Source: a virus
Taxonomy: Duplodnaviria > Caudoviricetes
Length of the DNA stretch: 52,698 nucleotides
IMG/VR virus record: IMGVR_UViG_3300048800_000113
Coordinates: 1-52,698 of that record
Strand: one strand, 5' to 3'
Numbering within the stretch: the stretch's first letter is position 1; the number at the start of each line of letters is the position of its first letter. The notes under the pieces are model-generated. The model saw only the letters and a list, made by a program, of their open reading frames with translations. It ran no database searches and was not told the origin of the DNA. Below, in pieces: positions 37,005 through 44,161 of the stretch. The translations under genes were made by a program, and so were the position numbers.

Positions 37005-38279
37005 TCACACTCCGGTGAATCGAACGCGATTATCGAGCAGCTGGCCGCTGAGATTGGGCTTATTGCCAGGACCTTGAATCTTCCAGTTGCCAGGACCTTG
37101 AATCTTCCAGGCTATTACTGACGTGGTGTAGTCGACATCTGCGCCAACGATGCTGGTGACGGCGACAACCTCACCATTAGTAGGGTTTGCCACGACACAG
37201 GGGTAGTAGCCGCTACTCACCGCACCGGGGTCTGCAGGGATACCGAAATAAGGCAACGCAAGCGATTCCAGCACTGGAGGTGTAGCACTCTGATCCACCA
37301 CGCACCAGAACTCGCCGCTATAGACAGCCCCGTCGGTGACCTCGACGTACTGGTAGAGGATCTTTCCATCTGGTGAGCTGACTGGAATACTCGGGTTTGC
37401 CACAACCGATCCTGAGGTAATCAAGTCACCGACGTAGTCCCCGGTGAAGCTGTAATACTTCCCATTGTCGATGATCCCACCGAAGATGTATGGCGACCCC
37501 ACGGCAGTGGCCCACTGGTAGCCATATGGAGGATCTGGCGCACCTGGAAGTGTGGTCTGTCCGTCATAGGAACCACTGAGCCCATCGGCAGCCACAGTGA
37601 AGTTCCACAGCCCAGGACTGTTGGGTGTAGACGTAGTCACCGTTGCTGTGGTCATCACGAACTTAGTACTGTCGATGGGATCCATGAACAGCCCGACGAC
37701 CCCTTGGGTCATTACTATCCCAGTGGGGATCTCACACAGCATGACTCCGGTACTAGCCGTGAACACCTGTAGGACGGGTTTATAGGAACCGTCTCTACAG
37801 GTGATGACCACTCGATCGGCTGTGCGGTCATAGACGTAGTTGAACGATCCATTATAGTCGTACGCATACGTGGTGGTGGTGGTCGTAAACAGCACAGTTG
37901 GAGCAGCAGGGAATGGAGCGAGACTGTTGCAGTCAACAATCCAGCTCTGGTAGGTACGGGTGTTGAACCATCCGCTGCTGTAATAGCGATCCTGAGCCTG
38001 AGAAATCAGCAGGACCTTGTTACCTGCAATGGCTATCGCTCTTGGTATCGGAGACTGGTGCAGAGCAAAAGTGATATCTGCCGTGCCCAGCACGCTCAGG
38101 TCTGACGCCAGATGCCACATCCTGATGATCTGAGGAGTCCCGAAGGAGTACATCATCGAAGCGACGAAGTAGGTCCCATCATCCAAGAGGGCAACAGTGG
38201 GCTGCAGATCTGTGACAAACCCAGTCCCAGAGCCAAGGTTTGTCTCAATGACAGCATTGGTGATAACGCTCAAAGTCAC
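37005..38279 (-). CDS. Probable receptor-binding/minor tail protein (beta-rich, lower GC)
   Basis: T/S/Y/G-rich; atypical codon usage; in-frame 24-bp tandem duplication near the C-terminus. Confidence 0.55.
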   Translation of the reverse strand: MTLSVITNAVIETNLGSGTGFVTDLQPTVALLDDGTYFVASMMYSFGTPQIIRMWHLASDLSVLGTADITFALHQSPIPRAIAIAGNKVLLISQAQDRYYSSGWFNTRTYQSWIVDCNSLAPFPAAPTVLFTTTTTTYAYDYNGSFNYVYDRTADRVVITCRDGSYKPVLQVFTASTGVMLCEIPTGIVMTQGVVGLFMDPIDSTKFVMTTATVTTSTPNSPGLWNFTVAADGLSGSYDGQTTLPGAPDPPYGYQWATAVGSPYIFGGIIDNGKYYSFTGDYVGDLITSGSVVANPSIPVSSPDGKILYQYVEVTDGAVYSGEFWCVVDQSATPPVLESLALPYFGIPADPGAVSSGYYPCVVANPTNGEVVAVTSIVGADVDYTTSVIAWKIQGPGNWKIQGPGNKPNLSGQLLDNRVRFTGV

Positions 38280-41200
38280 GGGATCTTCCCAATCGAACGC
38301 AGGTACTGCCGAGCCTCGACGGAGAGGTTGGCCGGATTAAACGTCCAGGCCGAGAACGCGGTGTCACCCAGCCAGTGGGTGTCCAGGTCGTAGGTGTACT
38401 TGCCGGTCTCCAGGGACCAGTTCATCGAGATGCCGATGACGTACTGGAGGAACGCCTCCTCAGAGACGCGCTCGTAGACACGCACCTGGTCGTCGACCTG
38501 GATCGCAGGGTTGCCAGGGATGGTCACCTTGTCCGTGCGGTAGGTGAACAGCTGGCGCAAGGTGATGAGGTCAGCCATGATCTGGCACTCAGCGGTGGTG
38601 GCAAAGTGCTGGTCCGTGAAGCCACCGACCCGACGCAGCCCACTGGGATAAGGGTTGTGCCCGTTGGACATCGCCGCGATCTGACCCGAGACGTTGGCCA
38701 CGAAGACCTTCTCGCGGATACTGCGACCAGACATCTTGGCGCCCAGGCCCATCAGCGTCGTGGTCTCGTCGATGACAACGACCGTTGTTGTACGCCCGGA
38801 GTTGGGGCCGCCGTTGCCAATCCAGTTGCCGACGCTCCAGATGTTGGGCGAGCGGAAGACCGCACCGCCGCCTTCATCGATGAAAAAGAGGTAGCCCACG
38901 ATGTCTTTCACATAAGTGATGCAATTATGAACGACGAACTCGCCCTTACCGACCGTGAATGACGGATCGCCGTCAACGCTCAAATCCCACAGCACGACCT
39001 CACCGTGCTCATCACAGAGGGCAGTCCATCCAGGATCTCCCTGTCGGAGAACCTCAGTACGGTCCACCCTTGCGAGATGAGCCATGCGTCGCGCAGTTGA
39101 TCCTTCTCTCGCCTGACCCTCAGAGCATGGCCGGGATCGTCCACCTCGACAGCCACCTTCATCGCTGGATTGGCCAGATCCACTCGCATCGACACAATAC
39201 CCTCGACGGTTCCCAGAGGAGACATCCAAAACTCTGGATACCAGTCGTCGCCCAGTGCTCGCCAGAGCATGAACTGCGCCTCCGAGAGACCGCCCCAGAC
39301 TGGATTCACCGTCCGACTCTGACGACACTTCATCGAACATGCGACCTGCGCTACCACCATGGGATGAAACGACTCGCCACAACCCACGCAAATCCGATCC
39401 TCGAAAGTTCGAGCCGCCGCAAAGCACGGCCGGGAGCAGTACCTCCTCCCCAAGTCCCCTCTGAACTCCACCCCGCACTGAGGACAGACATAGCTCGGAT
39501 TGCGCGTCTTGTGTTTCGCCGCCAATGCCCGTCGACAAGGATCCGAACATGTCTTTCTCGGACCCTTGGGTGTCCGTGTTGCCATGAACTCCACTCCGCA
39601 CCATTCGCAGGCTTTCAGAATGTTGACGTACTTCGTCCCCGACCTTGAGCTCATCAGCCCTGACCCAACCTCTCACCGTCCAGAAGAGGTGGCCGGCGCT
39701 GGTCACGATCTGCTCGCCGTCGATCACGGTCGCAACAACGGACGTTGCCAGTTGGCTCTTGCGTCCTGTCACGCGACCGTAGCCACCACGGTTGGCAACC
39801 ACATCACCAAGCCGCAGATCCTCTATCGGTCGGTGACCGCCAGGAACTTTGACAAGAGTCCCGGCAAGCACACAATCCATCACCGGCTTCTTGTCGAAGA
39901 CACTCATCGGGATGGCCACCAGCGGAGCAGTGCCGGTCTCCTCGAAGTCCCCCCAGACCCTGCCCTTGACCAGTGCCCTGTCATCGCTAGGAGCCACCGT
40001 GGTGACCCTGGTGCCATTGCTGTACGTCCTGAAGGCGTGCGTGGCCTCACGCGGCCAGTAGAAGCCGGCATAGGCCAACACCAGCTTAGGAATGTCGGTG
40101 TAGTCATAGATCCGAGGAGGGGCCGTCAGCGGCTCGATGTGGGTGCCGCCGGGGGTCGTGGTGGTAACGGTCGTTCCCACCGCTCCGGAGACCTTGAACG
40201 ACCGCACACCAGCTCGGTAGCGGTAGGTGCCAATGCCGGAGTTGCACAGGTTGGTGAAGGTCAGCCGGATCTTGGTAGCGCCAGCGATGGCCTTGAAAGC
40301 AACCGCCTTGGTCTCCTCGTTGTTCACGTGGAAGCGGGTCACGAAGCGGATGTTGGATCCGTTCGGGGCGCTAACCGGATCGTTGGGGTTGTAGGGCACC
40401 GTCTGGTCGCCCTGCCACTTGCCACCGGCGAACACGCTGACGTAGCAGGTGTAGGGCCCGCCCCACACCCGGAACCGCACGCCCGAGACCTTCTGGGAGG
40501 TGAACTTGCCTTGGATGAACTCGAAGGAGTAGTCCGCGTCAGGACGGGCGTTACCAATCGAGAGCCAGTAGGTGGCGTCGCTGGTGTCGAAGGCGTCGGG
40601 CCCGGTGTGCCCGTAGACGCTGCCGCCGTTGCCGACGTAGGGCAGGTTCGAGCTGGTCTCGTAGTGAGGCTGGACCCAGCCCGCGGACATGCCACCGGTG
40701 GACGTCACGATGTCGGGGTTCTTGACGTCATGGGCCGTCTCGAACCACAGCGGGTAGGAGGCGAAGGGCACGATCGGTGGGAAGAGGATCTGGTCCAACA
40801 AGATGGAGCCGATGTCCCTGCAAGTCACAGTGATGATGCCGTCATGGGTGAAGTCAACGTCGTCGATGCGCCACGTGCCGCTCTGGTAGAGGTGCGTGTC
40901 CACCTCTGGAGCCACGCTCGCATCGAAGCCGTAGCCCTCGTAGGTATTCCCGGTGTAAAAGACGGACCCATTGCGTCGCGCAAGCCAATTCTTGTGCTTA
41001 ACCCTTGGACACCAGACATGCCCTTCGTAGGGTTCCTGCATCACCCCATTCGCACGTCGATCCCCCTGGTAAGCAGCATCGTGAGGTGAAGTCACAGTCT
41101 GGCGCAGCAACGTCACGGCGCGACAACTTCCATGCTTCTTCGTGTGAGTTGGCTGCCCAGCAAGAGCGCAAGCAAACTCAAATGCTTTTACGCGCACCTC

Positions 41201-42463
41201 ATTCTGAAGGAAGGTCTCCGAACCGGTTCCATCACCCAGAATGCTGACATCGATAAACAATCTCAATTGCGACTGCGTCAGCGAGGTCAAGAACTCAGGG
41301 CTAGGGATCTTGTCTGGACCACAGATGACCTTGCGCAGTTCCCTAGCGACTTCCTGGGTGAAGACAAAGCAGTTCTGCCCTGGCCTGGTGTGTCCATCTC
41401 GCCATTTATACACCTTCGTGTTAGCCCGCTTACCACTTGCCCACCGATACACGGAGATGTTACTCACGCCGAGCTTCTCGGCAACATCCCGAACGGCCAT
41501 CCCTCGTTGACGAAGCCTGATAGCTTCGTCAACGATCTCTTGCGGCACATATGGTCCACGCGGCAACGGGCCAGGAGTTCCGTACATGCGATACATGAGA
41601 TCACGAATGCGCTTGGAGTTTTGAGGGTTCACAATTTCAGACTGACTGATGGACCCACCGCTATCTAGACCACGCAAGCGATGGTCAGCAGTACCCTCTG
41701 TGTAATACCACGCTGCCAGTTCCACAAAATCATCCGAATAACTGGCGACGATATCCTTGGCCTGCGACACGGCCAGAGGAATGTATGAATGCCTGTCAAG
41801 CGTCTCCGTGGTCCGCCAGTCAAACTTGCCGTAGCGCTTAGTTAGCCATCGGTGGTTGCCAGTGGTTAGAGAATCGTGCGTGCGTGTCTTGAGCCTTGTA
41901 AGTTCACCAACAAACGGAGCGCGAAACACCTCAACAATGCTTTGCCATTCAGCGTTACCTGTTGCCGGGTTGATCCCGAGCGTCTCGTCCCCTTCGGCGA
42001 CCTGGTCCCACGCAAGCCATCCACGCTTGGTAAGGATCTCCGTTTCAGTATCAACACACCTGATGATGCGATCGGGGACAAGCCAGTCCTGCCAGCCGTT
42101 GGCGGTCCTACTCCAGCGCGAGGAGTGAGCGGTGACGCCCCTCAAGGGGCTGTAGAACCCCGGCTGATCCAGGTCATTGTTCTGCGGTGGCTCACCGATC
42201 GGCAAAGGCTGCGTGTTGTAGAGCGTCATGGTCATGTCGGCCACGCCGCTGTCCACGGTGCGCTTCCACTTGACGTCCTTGAGGTTCGGCAGCTCGAGCG
42301 GCATGTTCGCCTGGCCGAAGGGCACGCTCGAGTACTGCTGGTTGCCATAGGACATGACAATCAGGTCCAGCCGCTGGATCGTGGCACGGACCATGGGCCG
42401 ATTGGTGCCCACGTAGTCGCCAGAGGCCCAGGCGTTCTTGGTCGCCGTGGTCGTGGTCCTCAC
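38276..42463 (-). CDS. Large minor tail protein (Tal/baseplate-hub-like) interrupted by two inteins
   Basis: Downstream of tape measure and distal-tail-like genes; W.IDDV..ITVTCRD and IPGNPAIQVDDQV tail-hub patterns; GTG 42463 overlaps the upstream TGA. Confidence 0.8.
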   Translation of the reverse strand: MRTTTTATKNAWASGDYVGTNRPMVRATIQRLDLIVMSYGNQQYSSVPFGQANMPLELPNLKDVKWKRTVDSGVADMTMTLYNTQPLPIGEPPQNNDLDQPGFYSPLRGVTAHSSRWSRTANGWQDWLVPDRIIRCVDTETEILTKRGWLAWDQVAEGDETLGINPATGNAEWQSIVEVFRAPFVGELTRLKTRTHDSLTTGNHRWLTKRYGKFDWRTTETLDRHSYIPLAVSQAKDIVASYSDDFVELAAWYYTEGTADHRLRGLDSGGSISQSEIVNPQNSKRIRDLMYRMYGTPGPLPRGPYVPQEIVDEAIRLRQRGMAVRDVAEKLGVSNISVYRWASGKRANTKVYKWRDGHTRPGQNCFVFTQEVARELRKVICGPDKIPSPEFLTSLTQSQLRLFIDVSILGDGTGSETFLQNEVRVKAFEFACALAGQPTHTKKHGSCRAVTLLRQTVTSPHDAAYQGDRRANGVMQEPYEGHVWCPRVKHKNWLARRNGSVFYTGNTYEGYGFDASVAPEVDTHLYQSGTWRIDDVDFTHDGIITVTCRDIGSILLDQILFPPIVPFASYPLWFETAHDVKNPDIVTSTGGMSAGWVQPHYETSSNLPYVGNGGSVYGHTGPDAFDTSDATYWLSIGNARPDADYSFEFIQGKFTSQKVSGVRFRVWGGPYTCYVSVFAGGKWQGDQTVPYNPNDPVSAPNGSNIRFVTRFHVNNEETKAVAFKAIAGATKIRLTFTNLCNSGIGTYRYRAGVRSFKVSGAVGTTVTTTTPGGTHIEPLTAPPRIYDYTDIPKLVLAYAGFYWPREATHAFRTYSNGTRVTTVAPSDDRALVKGRVWGDFEETGTAPLVAIPMSVFDKKPVMDCVLAGTLVKVPGGHRPIEDLRLGDVVANRGGYGRVTGRKSQLATSVVATVIDGEQIVTSAGHLFWTVRGWVRADELKVGDEVRQHSESLRMVRSGVHGNTDTQGSEKDMFGSLSTGIGGETQDAQSELCLSSVRGGVQRGLGEEVLLPAVLCGGSNFRGSDLRGLWRVVSSHGGSAGRMFDEVSSESDGESSLGRSLGGAVHALASTGRRLVSRVLDVSSGNRRGYCVDASGSGQSSDEGGCRGGRSRPCSEGQAREGSTARRMAHLARVDRTEVLRQGDPGWTALCDEHGEVVLWDLSVDGDPSFTVGKGEFVVHNCITYVKDIVGYLFFIDEGGGAVFRSPNIWSVGNWIGNGGPNSGRTTTVVVIDETTTLMGLGAKMSGRSIREKVFVANVSGQIAAMSNGHNPYPSGLRRVGGFTDQHFATTAECQIMADLITLRQLFTYRTDKVTIPGNPAIQVDDQVRVYERVSEEAFLQYVIGISMNWSLETGKYTYDLDTHWLGDTAFSAWTFNPANLSVEARQYLRSIGKIP
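38924..39874 (-). mobile_element. Intein 2 (317 aa) in the minor tail protein
   Basis: MD|CVLAGTLVKVPGG.RPIEDL..GD.V; block B TSAGHLFWT..GWVRADEL..GD; block F VLWDLSV.G..SF; block G FVVHN|C. Confidence 0.92.
38980..39654 (-). CDS. Nested out-of-frame endonuclease: three CxxC..CSxxC Zn repeats + DUF559/Vsr-like domain
   Basis: +1 frame relative to the intein; LSEAQFMLWRAL..RVDLA..KVAVEVD..H..KDQLRDAWL..GWTVLRF.D.EI. Confidence 0.85.
   Translation of the reverse strand: MSSRSGTKYVNILKACEWCGVEFMATRTPKGPRKTCSDPCRRALAAKHKTRNPSYVCPQCGVEFRGDLGRRYCSRPCFAAARTFEDRICVGCGESFHPMVVAQVACSMKCRQSRTVNPVWGGLSEAQFMLWRALGDDWYPEFWMSPLGTVEGIVSMRVDLANPAMKVAVEVDDPGHALRVRREKDQLRDAWLISQGWTVLRFSDREILDGLPSVMSTVRSCCGI
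40946..42058 (-). mobile_element. Intein 1 (371 aa) in the minor tail protein, LAGLIDADG-like with HTH insertion
   Basis: IR|CVDTETEILTKRGW; block B LTTGNHRW; LAAWYYTEG and FIDVSILGDG; block F HVWCP.V; ends FYTGN|T. Confidence 0.88.
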
Positions 42464-42843
42464 GAGAGCCTCCGGTAGTACAGCATGTCCACGGTGTAAT
42501 GGAACAGCCACGGGTTGTGGCCGCCCGACTTCTCAACGGGCGTTGGTGAGAAGCGCTGGCCGAGGACTTCATGCACGCGGCCGAAGTGGTCGGTCAGCTG
42601 CAGCCGGTTCGGCCGGTTCACCCAGGCCTCCAGCGCGTCGTACTCGTCCTGGGTGCGCAGCTTGCCGTTGAACGACCACGTGAAAGGTTTGTCAGGGGTC
42701 CGAGAGCTGCGGACCTTGCCGTCGATGGGTGACTTCGCCAGCGCCTTGGTCGTGTGCGGCTGAGCCATCGAGGCCATCGTCGCCGGGTTGTGCGAGAAGA
42801 CCAGCGTCTGGTTGGCCACCGGGTCGTGGAGCTGCCACCTCAT
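42460..42843 (-). CDS. Minor tail (distal-tail-like) protein
   Basis: RWQLHDP..LVF..NP..M resembles the C-terminal domain of 43334..44161. Confidence 0.65.
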   Translation of the reverse strand: MRWQLHDPVANQTLVFSHNPATMASMAQPHTTKALAKSPIDGKVRSSRTPDKPFTWSFNGKLRTQDEYDALEAWVNRPNRLQLTDHFGRVHEVLGQRFSPTPVEKSGGHNPWLFHYTVDMLYYRRLS

Positions 42844-43334
42844 AGCTGCACCGTGACCTTACGACGGGCCGCGTATCGGGCCGCTGCAGCTCTATTGCAG
42901 GCCCGACAGTACCGCTTACCGTGCTTATCAATGTAGGTGTTGGCCTCGTCGTACGCATGACGCTGTGGGCAGCGGGTTTTGTCCTGGTTGCCGTTATTGC
43001 TGCGGCCCTTTGCATTGCGATCCGCGGCATTCTCTGCGTCCGTCCCAAGGAAGAGGTGCCCCTCGGGGTAGCCTTCGGTCGGCTCAGTCTCACAGCAGGG
43101 TGGATTGTCGCAGTGATGGAGCACCTTCATGCCGGGCGGGATCGGACCGAAGGCCAACTCCCATGCAAGACGATGAGTCCGGACCTCCACCCCAAAGACA
43201 CTGATCCGGCCATAGCCATACCCGTGCCCGGTCCATTCCAGACATCCGTTCGGCATCCTCACCAACTTCGCAGCGAGACGCTCACGGATTGTCATGCCCA
43301 TGTACGTGCCGTCAGCCAAGCAGTACCTACCCAT
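42840..43334 (-). CDS. HNH homing endonuclease inserted in the tail module
   Basis: GCLEWTG..YGRI..THRLAW..VLHHCDNPPC..HLFLGT..N; CPQRHAY..NT..YCRAC. Confidence 0.9.
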   Translation of the reverse strand: MGRYCLADGTYMGMTIRERLAAKLVRMPNGCLEWTGHGYGYGRISVFGVEVRTHRLAWELAFGPIPPGMKVLHHCDNPPCCETEPTEGYPEGHLFLGTDAENAADRNAKGRSNNGNQDKTRCPQRHAYDEANTYIDKHGKRYCRACNRAAAARYAARRKVTVQL

Positions 43335-44161
43335 TAGAGTTGCACCGGCCCTGCGTAGATGATCGCCTTGAGCTGGTAGGTGAACGCCCAGTCGTTGTAG
43401 GCCTCGGGCAGCCGGGTCCAGGCGATGTTCTCCAGCGTCACCGTCCACGCACGAGAGAGATGGTCGATCATGTAGACCCGCCTGGGCATGGCCAGGAACG
43501 TCTCCAGCGCGTCGTGGAAGGCTTCCGTGCGGCAAGCGCCCTCCACCGTCCAGTCGACGCCCACAGGGGCTCCCTCGAACGTCAGAGGCTGCCCATCAGA
43601 CGCGGTGGAGTGCTCGATAGCGAACACCCTCCCCGCGTGCGGCGGAGACATCTTGCTCGGGCTGATCGGGAAGACGAAGCTCTCGCCTCCCGAGGTCGGA
43701 TCCTGCAAGACCCACCTGGTAACGCCCGTTTGCGTGACCGCTACCGGCGGGGAGTCTGCGGCCAGGCCCACCGGATAAGACACAGGCGGGTTGGTCACGA
43801 TGAACGAGACCGTGCCGGACAGCGTAGGCGTGGTCGCAGTGATTGTGTGCGAGCCCGCAGTCAGAGCCGGCAGTGGGATGGACATCCCGATGACCTGACC
43901 GTTGCTATCCAGCGTTGCTCCGAAGATCGTCACGCCACCGTCGATCGAGAAGTTGACAGGATCATTCGGTACCCCGTTGCTGACGGTGACCTTCAGCCAC
44001 GACGGAGTGGTGAGCACAGCAGCCAGGATTTCGACCTGCAGCGGGGCAACGCGAGCGCCACCGGCCCAGGTCACGGTGCCCGTGTCGGTGTACGTGGTCG
44101 TGGCCGGATGGACCCGCACGTAGTAGACGACACCCTCAGAGACCGGCGCCAGAACGGTCAT
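43334..44161 (-). CDS. Minor tail protein
   Basis: Ig-like beta region + distal-tail-like C-terminal domain. Confidence 0.65.
   Translation of the reverse strand: MTVLAPVSEGVVYYVRVHPATTTYTDTGTVTWAGGARVAPLQVEILAAVLTTPSWLKVTVSNGVPNDPVNFSIDGGVTIFGATLDSNGQVIGMSIPLPALTAGSHTITATTPTLSGTVSFIVTNPPVSYPVGLAADSPPVAVTQTGVTRWVLQDPTSGGESFVFPISPSKMSPPHAGRVFAIEHSTASDGQPLTFEGAPVGVDWTVEGACRTEAFHDALETFLAMPRRVYMIDHLSRAWTVTLENIAWTRLPEAYNDWAFTYQLKAIIYAGPVQL

What the first reader, a model, noticed from the sequence alone, without database searches (positions are those of the whole stretch)
38924..39874. Intein whose endonuclease is a separate gene overprinted in the +1 frame
Seen: intein 2 has intact splicing blocks (C1, TSAGH, WDLSV, HN|C), and its frame stays open through a ~200-aa middle that reads as Ser/Gly/Arg-rich filler with no recognisable domain. 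The same DNA read in the +1 frame (38980-39654, ATG inside the GAT-GAG codons of RADEL) is a clean 224-aa protein with three CxxC..CSxxC Zn repeats and a DUF559/Vsr-like nuclease. Its last ~35 codons (GWTVLRFSDREI..) overlap the intein C-terminal splicing region (ARVDRTEVL..VVLWDL), so that stretch appears dual-coding. Known: intein homing endonucleases are normally in-frame domains released by splicing. Inference: here the endonuclease is translated independently (internal start or +1 frameshift) and the intein excises the junk translation of the nuclease gene from a virion protein. This would let a free-standing nuclease gene sit harmlessly inside an essential gene. I know of no description of this architecture but cannot search the literature. 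A single sequencing error cannot produce it, because both frames are open.
Basis: partly seen in the sequence, partly recalled or inferred. Interest (0 to 1): 0.93.

Follow-up and report, generated by a model that had tools for sequence, protein, structure and literature searches.

The report
Homing nuclease gene overprinted inside intein
A self-splicing intein in a phage tail-region gene carries a complete homing-nuclease gene written in a shifted reading frame of the same DNA, and related sequences show that this layout, so far reported as rare, is the usual home of this whole nuclease family.

Summary
Window 38924-39874 (-) is a 317-aa class-1 intein with exact boundaries. ORF 38980-39654 (-) lies in its +1 frame and encodes a 224-aa protein: three zinc-ribbon repeats plus a DUF559/Vsr-like (EDxHD) nuclease.

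The nuclease frame folds confidently (pLDDT 89). The intein frame over the same DNA is disordered (pLDDT about 40) between two confident Hint halves.

The intein frame is kept open by stop avoidance: 0 stops against 7.4 expected (1 of 20,000 shuffles). The nuclease's last 33 or so codons are co-encoded with the intein's C-terminal splicing strands.

This is not a one-off. In 77 of the best 80 related viral loci the same nuclease sits in the same +1 relation inside a long intein-bearing ORF (helicases, clamp loaders, terminases, tail genes). Three GenBank phages show it too, and there the nested gene is unannotated.

Preprints of 2025-2026 report out-of-frame intein endonucleases of other types or strands, and Dassa 2009 described the split-intein form.

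The new elements are this nuclease type on the sense strand, the dual-coded 3' end and the family-wide scale. Expression and splicing remain untested.

The parts
38276..42511 (-). Host gene, 1411 aa with two inteins (about 727 aa after splicing). Probably a tail-module protein downstream of a 1506-aa ORF.
   Evidence: The homologue in Caudovirales GX15bay follows a 'minor tail protein' gene and is intein-free at both sites. The same gene with the same intein-2 site is in L010. No Pfam or PHROG function was found for the exteins.
38924..39874 (-). Intein 2, 317 aa, class 1 (Cys1 ... His-Asn | Cys+1).
   Evidence: The boundaries match the intein-free homologue..FDKRPVID|AIKQIRDIVGF.. against ..FDKKPVMD|[intein]|CITYVKDIVGY...
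39584..39874 (-). Intein 2 N-terminal splicing half (intein residues 1 to about 97; blocks A and B, ..TSAGH..).
   Evidence: pLDDT 95-98 for residues 1-90. C1 and H62 are invariant in 26 aligned inteins. Foldseek matches solved inteins.
39083..39583 (-). Host-frame filler (intein residues about 98-264). This is the frame-shifted reading of the nuclease gene, Ser/Gly/Arg-rich.
   Evidence: pLDDT 36-50 with no secondary structure. No Pfam family at E<=0.1. Unconserved among 26 inteins. 0 stops against 7.4 expected.
38924..39082 (-). Intein 2 C-terminal splicing half (residues about 265-317: ARVDRTEVL...VVLWDLSV...FVVHN).
   Evidence: pLDDT 93-97. The consensus RVDSVEILE...YDLEV.GHPSY..NG.LVHN is conserved, with H316 and N317 invariant.
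38980..39654 (-). Nested +1-frame gene, 224 aa plus stop (38980-38982): zinc-ribbon repeats plus a DUF559/Vsr-like (EDxHD) nuclease. Putative homing endonuclease.
39319..39609 (-). Three CxxC...CSxxC zinc-ribbon repeats (nuclease residues 16-112). Presumed DNA-binding part.
   Evidence: Translation. PHROG phrog_1271 'HNH endonuclease' at E 1.2e-11 on residues 14-114. pLDDT 84-96.
38989..39297 (-). Nuclease core (residues about 120-222). D159, E170, D172, H176 and D185 are invariant in the family.
   Evidence: Pfam DUF559. Invariant columns in A1 and A2. Foldseek: 3hrl TMt 0.76 and I-Bth0305I 3r3p TMt 0.59.
38983..39082 (-). Dual-coding stretch. Nuclease ..QGWTVLRFSDREILDGLPSVMSTVRSCCGI* is co-encoded with intein ..RVDRTEVLRQGDPGWTALCDEHGEVVLWDL...
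   Evidence: The same overlap occurs in related loci, where the nuclease stop falls a median of 16 codons before the intein's last codon.
39652..39654 (-). ATG of the nested gene, formed by host codons GAT-GAG. An in-frame stop lies 6 codons upstream (39673-39675).
40958..42058 (-). Intein 1 (host residues 152-518, C...GN|T) with an in-frame HTH-containing insert. Not part of the finding, but in the same host gene.
   Evidence: Absent from L010 and GX15bay.

Best explanation
Intein 2 is a contiguous class-1 intein whose homing-endonuclease gene is not an in-frame domain. It is a complete, separately delimited gene written in the +1 frame of the intein's central region.

Ribosomes translating the host gene read straight through that DNA. 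They produce about 165 residues of structureless filler that links the N- and C-terminal Hint halves. Protein splicing then removes the filler together with the intein (inferred).

The nuclease has three zinc-ribbon repeats and a Vsr-like EDxHD catalytic core. It is most likely made by internal initiation at its own ATG (inferred). It would cut intein-free alleles near ..PVMD|CITY.. so that the whole unit is copied in by repair (inferred from the family).

Selection acts on both frames. In the centre, the nuclease frame is conserved as a protein, while the host frame is constrained only to lack stop codons. At the 3' end, about 33 codons here, both proteins are constrained at once.

The layout is the normal state of this nuclease clade, not an accident of this phage.
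For: Shown in the window:
- DUF559 hit at 40.1 bits against a 20.6 cut-off.
- Family-invariant D159, E170, D172, H176, D185 are present, with the same H-to-D spacing of 9 as H213/D222 of I-Bth0305I (passage).
- AlphaFold2: nuclease frame mean pLDDT 89.3. Host frame is 95-98 / 36-50 / 93-97 for the N half / middle / C half.
- 24 Foldseek hits at E<=1e-3 for the intein model, mostly solved inteins, with intein-like (BIL) domains among them.
- Exact boundaries against an intein-free homologue.
- Stop avoidance: 0 observed against 7.37 expected, 1 of 20,000 shuffles.
- GC3 is 0.68 in the nuclease frame against 0.53 in the host frame over the overlap.
- Near-identical variants: of the 40 of 122 differences that were listed, X6 gives 16 synonymous and 16 non-synonymous codon changes in the nuclease frame against 7 and 23 in the host frame. 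No new stops and no frame-breaking indels.

Shown in the family:
- 77 of the best 80 viral loci (of 315 confirmed) have the nuclease +1 inside a 470-1875-codon ORF. Intein blocks F/G lie at the nuclease stop and blocks A/B lie upstream.
- 9 of 9 host ORFs tested have Hint/intein Pfam hits at E<=0.001, 6 of them with a hit above Pfam's curated cut-off.
- Over 65 non-identical loci and 13,044 codons, there are 0 host-frame stops against 572 expected, and 958 third-frame stops against 855 expected.
- In 66 of 66 pairs most differences fall at nuclease codon position 3, which is host position 1. Sums are 3928 / 3521 / 6187.
- A Shine-Dalgarno motif of 5 nt or more precedes a nuclease-frame start in 16 of 68 loci, against 2 and 1 of 68 in the other two frames.
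- The same layout occurs in three cultured phages' annotated CDSs.
Against: - No expression data: no RNA holder was listed, and no proteomics is available.
- The window's ATG has no Shine-Dalgarno motif at 4-12 nt. The nearest, GAGAGG, is 14 nt upstream. No promoter-like site lies on that strand.
- Splicing with a 165-residue disordered insert is assumed, not shown.
- Foldseek E-values for the nuclease are weak: best 1.2e-2, none at or below 1e-3. The PDB sequence search gives only E 0.017.
- The '0 host-frame stops' family count is partly circular, because loci were classed as nested by that openness. The independent figure is 77 of 80.
- Only the best 80 of 315 viral hits were examined.
- The substitution count uses the 40 of 122 differences that the tool listed.
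- Intein N-half identity and nuclease identity barely co-vary (Spearman 0.09). Movement as one unit is therefore not demonstrated.
Confidence: 0.76

Rival explanations
1. The nested ORF is a relic. A free-standing nuclease gene once invaded the intein, is no longer expressed here, and is on its way to decay. Only the host frame matters now.
For: - There is no Shine-Dalgarno motif or promoter-like site at the window's ATG.
- Decay does occur in the family. Four related loci, L047 and L050/L051/L058, have stops in the nuclease frame while the host frame stays open.
Against: - The window's ORF is full length, with all five family-invariant residues and a confident fold.
- Close variants in other samples keep it open. 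They change it synonymously more often than they change the host frame.
- A one-codon deletion in X6 preserves both frames.
Confidence: 0.12
2. The nuclease is not initiated internally. It is made by a programmed +1 ribosomal frameshift from the intein frame, which would give an N-extein/N-intein/nuclease fusion.
For: - The nested frame is +1 in 77 of 80 loci, a fixed relation.
- The window lacks a Shine-Dalgarno motif.
Against: - An in-frame stop lies only 6 codons upstream of the ATG in the window.
- A start codon in the nuclease frame preceded by a Shine-Dalgarno motif is enriched in the family: 16 of 68 against 1-2 of 68.
- Fractured relatives L011 and L013 express the same nuclease clade from an ORF that the host frame cannot reach.
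- No slippery motif was searched for or seen.
Confidence: 0.07
3. Artefact: a normal in-frame Vsr-type intein endonuclease appears shifted because of two compensating indel errors in the assembly.
For: In-frame versions of the same nuclease inside inteins do exist: P0070 and L056.
Against: - The ORF has its own ATG and stop, and a stop 6 codons upstream.
- Contigs from other runs show no indels except one whole-codon deletion.
- 77 independent loci and three finished phage genomes share the layout.
- The host frame is stop-free far beyond chance.
Confidence: 0.01
4. The host gene is functionally split. The host-frame filler is not translated through, and the two halves are made separately and joined in trans, as in 'fractured genes'.
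For: - The same nuclease clade occurs in truly fractured loci. L011 and L013 have stops in the host frame, and a Met lies just before the C-terminal RV(E/D)SIE strand.
- The window also has a Met at ..RRMAHLARVDRTEVL...
Against: - The window's host frame has no stop across the whole intein, and that openness is strongly selected.
- Such selection would be pointless if translation ended there.
Confidence: 0.04

Closest known systems
Actinobacteriophage inteins with non-canonical homing endonucleases (Gosselin, Arsenault and Gogarten, bioRxiv 10.1101/2025.01.02.630785; abstract, sections 8 and 15, and passages read)
   Same: - A contiguous intein whose endonuclease is encoded in a reading frame other than the intein's.
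- The in-frame translation gives no recognisable structure.
- Hosts include terminase and other essential phage genes.
[quoted passage not shown]
   Different: - They report a same-strand frame-3 endonuclease VII-like gene, and antisense LAGLIDADG and antisense VSR-like genes, and call them rare (63 of 784 inteins).
- Here the gene is a sense-strand, +1-frame Vsr-like/EDxHD nuclease with zinc ribbons.
- Here the 3' end is overprinted on the C-terminal splicing blocks. [quoted passage not shown]
Cyanobacterial dnaX intein with out-of-frame LAGLIDADG endonuclease (Phillips, DeSimone and Gogarten, bioRxiv 10.64898/2026.09.14.751524; abstract, sections 11 and 17 read)
   Same: - An overlapping ORF within the disordered middle of a contiguous intein.
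- A confident fold only in the alternative frame.
- Purifying selection on the endonuclease frame.
- Shine-Dalgarno motifs upstream.
   Different: - The endonuclease there is LAGLIDADG class in a '+2 ORF'.
- It occupies one cellular host gene in one phylum.
- It is described as a rarity.
Fractured genes: split inteins with a free-standing Vsr-like or GIY-YIG gene between the halves (Dassa et al. 2009, PMC2677866; passages read)
   Same: - The nuclease type is the same (Vsr-like).
- All parts lie on the same strand.
- The nuclease 3' end overlaps the start of the C-terminal intein part by 6-69 bp.
- Hosts are phage replication genes.
- L011 and L013 in this family have exactly this form.
   Different: - In fractured genes the host frame is terminated, 27-51 nt of non-coding DNA precede the nuclease gene, and splicing is in trans.
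- Here the host frame is open throughout and splicing would be in cis.
- That paper states that Vsr-like domains were not known in inteins.
[quoted passage not shown] 2011, PMC3239194; passages read; PDB 3r3p)
   Same: - A Vsr-like catalytic core with conserved E, D, H, D.
- H-to-D spacing of 9.
- Structural match at TMt 0.59, probability 1.00.
   Different: - I-Bth0305I sits in a group I intron and has NUMOD-type DNA-binding motifs.
- The window's protein has three zinc-ribbon repeats and sits in an intein.
ShiLan out-of-frame HNH insertion in phage methylase genes (Arsenault et al. 2025, PMC11855218; abstract read)
   Same: - An endonuclease gene is hidden in another frame of an insertion.
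- That insertion is stop-free in the host frame.
   Different: - There is no intein. The in-frame insert stays in the host protein.
- The nuclease is of HNH type.
In-frame DUF559 intein endonucleases (P0070 helicase; L056)
   Same: - The same nuclease core, 38% identity over residues 127-221.
- It lies between the same intein halves.
   Different: - The nuclease is fused in frame.
- It has no zinc-ribbon part in P0070.
- It is a canonical intein architecture.

Membership tests
Intein (HINT superfamily, class 1) | N-terminal nucleophile (Cys/Ser1) directly after the N-extein | tested here: met
   Cys1 follows ..PVMD. C1 is invariant in 26 aligned inteins.
Intein (HINT superfamily, class 1) | Block B Thr-x-x-His | tested here: met
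   The motif is ..TSAGH.., and H62 is invariant.
Intein (HINT superfamily, class 1) | C-terminal His-Asn followed by Cys/Ser/Thr at +1 | tested here: met
   The end reads ..FVVHN|C. H316 and N317 are invariant.
Intein (HINT superfamily, class 1) | Hint fold formed by the N and C halves | tested here: met
   AlphaFold2 pLDDT is 93-98 in both halves. Foldseek gives 24 hits at E<=1e-3, mostly solved inteins plus intein-like (BIL) domains, with 2lwy at TMt 0.84. Hint_2 scores 30.8 bits against a 28.4 cut-off.
Intein (HINT superfamily, class 1) | Precise insertion relative to an intein-free allele | tested here: met
   The GX15bay homologue is contiguous across the site. A possible intein-free allele in run X6 is unverified.
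Intein (HINT superfamily, class 1) | Protein splicing activity | not testable with these tools
   Inferred from the selected open frame and the conserved exteins.
Pfam DUF559 / Vsr-like (EDxHD) endonuclease | Profile match above the curated cut-off | tested here: met
   DUF559 at 40.1 bits against 20.6, E 3.6e-10.
Pfam DUF559 / Vsr-like (EDxHD) endonuclease | Conserved E, D, H, D catalytic residues | tested here: met
   E170, D172, H176 and D185 (plus D159) are invariant in 28 and in 11 sequences. The motif definition comes from PMC3239194.
Pfam DUF559 / Vsr-like (EDxHD) endonuclease | Vsr-like fold | tested here: inconclusive
   The top Foldseek hits are 3hrl and 3r3p at probability 1.00, but with E about 1e-2. 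No hit reaches E<=1e-3.
Pfam DUF559 / Vsr-like (EDxHD) endonuclease | Site-specific DNA cleavage of the element-free allele (homing) | not testable with these tools
   Inferred.
Out-of-frame homing endonuclease inside a contiguous intein | A complete endonuclease ORF between the splicing halves, in a frame other than the intein's | tested here: met
Out-of-frame homing endonuclease inside a contiguous intein | The host frame is uninterrupted and its translation of the overlap is unstructured | tested here: met
Out-of-frame homing endonuclease inside a contiguous intein | Purifying selection on the endonuclease frame rather than on the host frame in the overlap | tested here: met
   66 of 66 family pairs. 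Close variants show the same pattern on a partial list.
Fractured gene / split intein (Dassa 2009) | The host frame is terminated before the nuclease gene and restarted for the C-terminal intein part | tested here: not met
   There is no stop in the host frame across 38924-39874. The feature is met in relatives L011 and L013.

The most novel reading that the evidence does not exclude
The zinc-ribbon/EDxHD nuclease clade is an obligately overprinted homing-endonuclease lineage.

- It lives almost only in the +1 frame of contiguous inteins.
- Its last 20-55 codons are permanently co-encoded with the intein's C-terminal splicing strands (GWTVLRFSN..IRS.CTT* over RVDSVEILE..YDLTV).
- In this form it has colonised at least ten different insertion sites, in helicase, clamp-loader, terminase and tail genes of phages of unrelated hosts, and in some bacterial genomes.

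On this reading, split-intein 'fractured genes' and in-frame Vsr-type inteins are derivatives of this state. Out-of-frame intein endonucleases would then be a stable, old and common design rather than rare transients. Many database 'helicase', 'terminase' and 'hypothetical' CDSs would hide an unannotated gene.
Probability: 0.5. Interest if true: 0.8.

Novelty: new variant of a known kind. Interest (0 to 1): 0.62.

Why it matters
**Overlapping genes.** This is a clean natural case of two proteins read from one DNA strand in two frames. One reading is only required to be stop-free and harmless, because protein splicing discards it. A short stretch must serve two folded proteins at once. That makes it useful for studying overlapping-gene evolution and how tolerant inteins are of long disordered inserts.

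**Evolution of inteins and their endonucleases.** The case bears on how inteins acquire endonucleases (the 'splicing first' view). It also links contiguous, fractured (split) and in-frame forms within one nuclease clade.

**Annotation.** The nested gene is unannotated in the three GenBank phages checked. Gene callers that forbid long same-strand overlaps will miss it (recalled behaviour of such programs, not tested here).

**Frequency.** If the family-wide pattern holds beyond the 80 loci examined, the published view that such architectures are rare needs revising.

Tried and rejected
**Searches for close relatives**
- Near-identical DNA in GenBank phages: none.
- Single-protein locus search in viral contigs: only 6 distant loci.
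- Word-indexed protein search: only 4 hits. Relatives came from the exhaustive HMMER search and from the alignment-based scan.

**Host-gene function**
- PHROGs and Pfam gave no function for the window's exteins or for neighbouring ORFs, including the 1506-aa presumed tape measure.
- 'Tail protein' therefore rests on synteny only.

**Co-divergence of intein and nuclease**
- The Spearman correlation between intein N-half identity and nuclease identity was 0.09 over 903 pairs. This is inconclusive, because the sequences are saturated and the segments short. No claim of co-evolution as one unit is made.
- Intein N-boundaries were found by a regular expression and several were wrong. Only 43 non-identical inteins with clean C..[HSGK]N ends were used, and at least one of those (L075, 216 aa) is still mis-bounded. 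Intein length extremes are therefore not reported.

**Genome-contig scan**
- The crude 'nested' flag marked 26 of 66 loci.
- By my reading of the printed tails, 21 of 66 show an intein C-terminal motif.
- L102, L112, L114 and L115 are flagged but show no intein motif, and L113 is unclear.
- Most of the remaining loci are short free-standing DUF559 ORFs (Brevundimonas and others), so not all DUF559 proteins are nested. L153 is unflagged but shows an intein C-terminal tail.

**Expression and reads**
- No RNA holder was listed for the stretch. This says nothing about expression.
- The skip 38860->39882 in two X6 contigs may be an intein-free allele. The letters between were not given, so it is only a lead.
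- The promoter scan found nothing on the gene's strand.

**Rejected readings**
- Sequencing artefact, pseudogene host, and chance open frame. A 229-aa antisense ORF is also open over the same DNA and has no Pfam family, so openness alone was never used as evidence.

**Literature**
- Searches were.
- None of the papers read describes a sense-strand +1 Vsr-like/EDxHD gene in a contiguous intein.
- Supplementary tables of the 2025 preprint could not be opened and might list one.

The DNA of P0001, P0002 and P0010 was therefore not seen.


Full report
**What is in the window.** The minus strand carries a 1411-aa ORF at 38276-42511 with two inteins.
- Intein 1 is host residues 152-518.
- Intein 2 is host residues 880-1196, i.e. 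window 38924-39874, 317 aa. It starts with Cys after ..PVMD and ends ..VVHN before Cys.
- A 224-aa ORF at 38980-39654 lies on the same strand, offset by +1. Its ATG is made by the GAT-GAG codons of ..RADEL... An in-frame stop lies 6 codons upstream. It spans intein residues 74-299.
- The window is a 52.7-kb virus record judged 63% complete, and it holds one copy of this ORF.

**The two readings of the same DNA.**
- The nested ORF matches Pfam DUF559 above the curated cut-off: 40.1 bits against 20.6, E 3.6e-10.
- Its N-terminal 100 residues are three CxxC...CSxxC repeats, which match a PHROG annotated as HNH endonuclease at E 1.2e-11.
- With an alignment of 28 relatives it folds at mean pLDDT 89.3.
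- Its best structural matches are the DUF559 protein 3hrl (TMt 0.76) and the catalytic domain of the homing endonuclease I-Bth0305I, 3r3p (TMt 0.59). The E-values are only about 1e-2.
- The residues invariant in the family (D159, E170, D172, H176, D185) correspond to the composite EDxHD motif described for that family (PMC3239194, passages).
- The host-frame reading of the central 191 residues has no Pfam family at E<=0.1.
- In the AlphaFold2 model of intein 2, pLDDT is 95-98 for residues 1-90, 36-50 for 101-260 with no secondary structure, and 93-97 for 271-317.
- The two confident halves form a Hint fold. It matches 24 solved chains at E<=1e-3, mostly inteins with some intein-like (BIL) domains.
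- Intein 2 alone passes the Hint_2 cut-off.

**The boundaries are exact.** A homologue in Caudovirales GX15bay (MK557849.1) is uninterrupted at both intein sites. It reads ..FDKRPVID-AIKQIRDIVGF.., where the window has ..FDKKPVMD-[intein 2]-CITYVKDIVGY... Viral contig L010 has the same host gene (32% identity over 954 aa) with an intein and a nested nuclease at the same site, but it lacks intein 1. The host gene lies three ORFs downstream of a 1506-aa ORF, and its GX15bay homologue follows a 'minor tail protein' gene. That it is a tail protein is inference. Pfam and PHROGs gave no function.

**Both frames are kept by selection.**
- Shuffling synonymous codons of the nested ORF gives a mean of 7.37 stops in the host frame. 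Only 1 of 20,000 shuffles had none. The observed count is 0, while the third frame has 11 stops against 9.7 expected.
- GC3 is 0.85 in the exteins, 0.68 in the nested frame and 0.53 in the host frame over the overlap.
- Contigs of other public runs carry close variants. X4 has 26 differences in 653 nt without gaps. X6 has 38 differences and three single-base deletions within 6 nt, which equals one codon.
- The tool listed 40 of the 122 differences. In X6 they give 16 synonymous and 16 non-synonymous codon changes in the nuclease frame, against 7 and 23 in the host frame. No new stops appear in either frame.

**The overlap with the splicing domain is real dual coding.** The structured C-terminal half begins near intein residue 265 (ARVDRTEVL..), and the nuclease ends at residue 299. 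About 33 codons therefore encode both ..QGWTVLRFSDREILDGLPSVMSTVRSCCGI* and ..RVDRTEVLRQGDPGWTALCDEHGEVVLWDL... In alignments of relatives, both readings of this stretch are the most conserved parts of their proteins: GWTVLRFSN in the nuclease and RVDSVEILE...YDLEV in the intein.

**The family.**
- An exhaustive profile-free search found 1990 representatives at E<=1e-3 and 114 at E<=1e-10, mostly 190-350 aa.
- Many end in ..IRSRCTT or ..STTSR... This suggested that their C-termini are overprinted on intein block F.
- A pattern scan of IMG/VR with the alignment gave 344 stretches, of which 315 were confirmed and the best 80 were kept.
- In 77 of these 80, the frame in which the nuclease is +1 is open across the whole nuclease and runs for 470-1875 codons.
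- That frame reads canonical blocks F/G around the nuclease stop (..vYDLtV.GHPSYFANG.LVHN|C..). Upstream it reads blocks A/B (..C[FL].aGT.....H.F.T..GW..A..L..GD).
- Nine of nine host ORFs tested have Hint/intein Pfam hits at E<=0.001. Six of the nine have a hit above Pfam's curated cut-off.
- Hosts include ResIII/Helicase_C helicases, DNA_pol3_delta2 clamp loaders, terminase large subunits (PHROGs) and the tail-region gene of the window and L010. There are at least ten different insertion contexts among 43 cleanly bounded, non-identical inteins.
- The nuclease stop falls a median of 16 codons (range -10 to 26) before the intein's last codon.

**Selection in the family.**
- Over 65 non-identical nested loci (13,044 codons), the host frame has 0 stops against 572 expected. 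The third frame has 958 against 855. The zero is partly built into the definition of 'nested'. The independent statement is 77 of 80.
- In 66 of 66 pairs with 50-98% nuclease identity, most differences lie at nuclease codon position 3, which is host position 1. The sums are 3928, 3521 and 6187.

**The exceptions are informative.**
- L056 carries the nuclease in frame, as does protein P0070.
- L011 and L013 have stops in the host frame and a Met just before the C-terminal strand. This is the 'fractured gene' form.
- Four loci, L047 and L050/L051/L058, have stops in the nuclease frame but an open host frame, i.e. a decaying endonuclease gene.

**Bacterial and archaeal genomes.** 66 loci were found.
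- By my reading of the printed tails, 21 of 66 are nested with an intein C-terminus.
- Most of the others are short free-standing DUF559 genes.

**Cultured phages.** In Vibrio phage 1.194.O (NVP1194O_69, 'coil containing protein'), Pseudomonas phage MR14 (gp44, 'putative helicase') and Corynebacterium phage phi673 (gp43, 'putative helicase'), the nuclease ORF lies +1 inside the single annotated CDS, between intein halves, and is not annotated itself.

**How it most likely works.**
- Shown: two overlapping, selected readings; an intact Hint fold; an intact nuclease with its catalytic residues.
- Inferred: the host precursor is translated through the filler and spliced in cis.
- Inferred: the nuclease is initiated internally.
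- Inferred: it cleaves intein-free alleles and drives homing.

For internal initiation, the family gives some support. A Shine-Dalgarno motif of 5 nt or more precedes a nuclease-frame start codon in 16 of 68 loci, against 2 and 1 of 68 for the other two frames. The motif is often built from the intein's conserved K-G-D codons, and the ATG is often built from the GAT-G of that Asp. The window itself has no such motif at a usual distance and no promoter-like site on its strand, so expression here is open. No RNA-holding run was listed, which says nothing either way.

**Prior knowledge.** The idea is in print.
- Actinobacteriophage inteins with a frame-3 endonuclease VII-like gene, and with antisense LAGLIDADG or VSR-like genes, are described in bioRxiv 10.1101/2025.01.02.630785 (abstract, sections 8 and 15, passages).
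- The cyanobacterial dnaX intein with an overlapping LAGLIDADG ORF is described in bioRxiv 10.64898/2026.09.14.751524 (abstract, sections 11 and 17). That paper credits Gorbalenya 1998, which I did not read.
- An out-of-frame HNH insertion without an intein is in PMC11855218 (abstract).
- Split inteins with a Vsr-like gene between the halves are in PMC2677866 (passages).

I found no description of three things:
- a sense-strand +1 EDxHD/Vsr-like gene in a contiguous intein;
- its systematic overprinting on the C-terminal splicing blocks;
- the near-universal nesting of a whole nuclease clade.

The supplements of the 2025 preprint could not be seen and might bear on the first point.

**Verdict.** The window is a new variant of a recently described kind. 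The family-wide pattern found on the way is the more interesting result.

Noticed in passing
window 40958-42058 (-): Intein 1 of the same host gene (C...GN|T, 367 aa) has an in-frame insert with weak HTH matches (HTH_23, HTH_7). Its relatives are inteins in portal, terminase and methylase genes of Gordonia and Mycobacterium phages. It is absent from the homologous genes in L010 and GX15bay.
   Followed up: partly
window 42840-43535 (-): A free-standing HNH_3 endonuclease gene (42.9 bits against a 24.8 cut-off) lies two ORFs upstream of the intein-bearing gene. It is a third putative mobile nuclease element in 5 kb.
   Followed up: no
window 38959-39648 (+) and 39500-41089 (+): Long antisense ORFs (229 and 529 aa) are also open over the intein region, so three of the six frames are open across the nested gene. 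The 229-aa ORF has no Pfam family at E<=0.1. This is probably a by-product of composition.
   Followed up: partly
window 38860-39882, run X6: Two contigs of one run join 38860 to 39882, skipping 1021 nt. Intein 2 is 951 nt, and the letters between were not given. This may be an intein-free allele coexisting with intein-bearing variants in that sample.
   Followed up: no
L011:1838-3939 and L013:1949-4110: The same nuclease clade (5-6 zinc-ribbon repeats, 410-413 aa) occurs in a truly fractured terminase-like gene. The host frame stops inside the nuclease gene. The C-terminal intein part reopens in the same frame, with a Met just before RV(E/D)SIE.
   Followed up: partly
L047, L050, L051, L058: The nuclease frame carries internal stops while the spanning intein/host frame stays open. 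These look like decaying endonuclease genes in still-intact inteins.
   Followed up: no
L025, L034, L045, L068, L079-L082 and others: The nuclease gene's Shine-Dalgarno motif is built from the intein's conserved Lys-Gly-Asp codons (AAAGGAGAT). In other loci the ATG itself is the GAT-G of that Asp. The translation signals are therefore also overprinted on the splicing domain.
   Followed up: partly
L154 (MG592563.1), L155 (MT104474.1), L156 (MG324353.1): In three deposited phage genomes the nested +1 nuclease ORF (215-263 codons stop to stop) is not annotated. Only the long host CDS is. One of those is named 'coil containing protein'.
   Followed up: yes
alignment A3, columns about 380-400 and about 100-115: The otherwise unconserved host-frame filler shows small conserved patches (..LQ.R...S......R.GR.. 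and ..R.(L/V)R.G..). They appear to be echoes of the nuclease's catalytic core and of its first CxxCG read in the other frame. AlphaFold2 even draws a confident helix at intein residues 85-97.
   Followed up: partly
P0010 (71-aa fragment): The closest relative of the window's nuclease is 84% identical over residues 154-223 and ends ..SSCGT. It exists only as a contig-end fragment.
   Followed up: no
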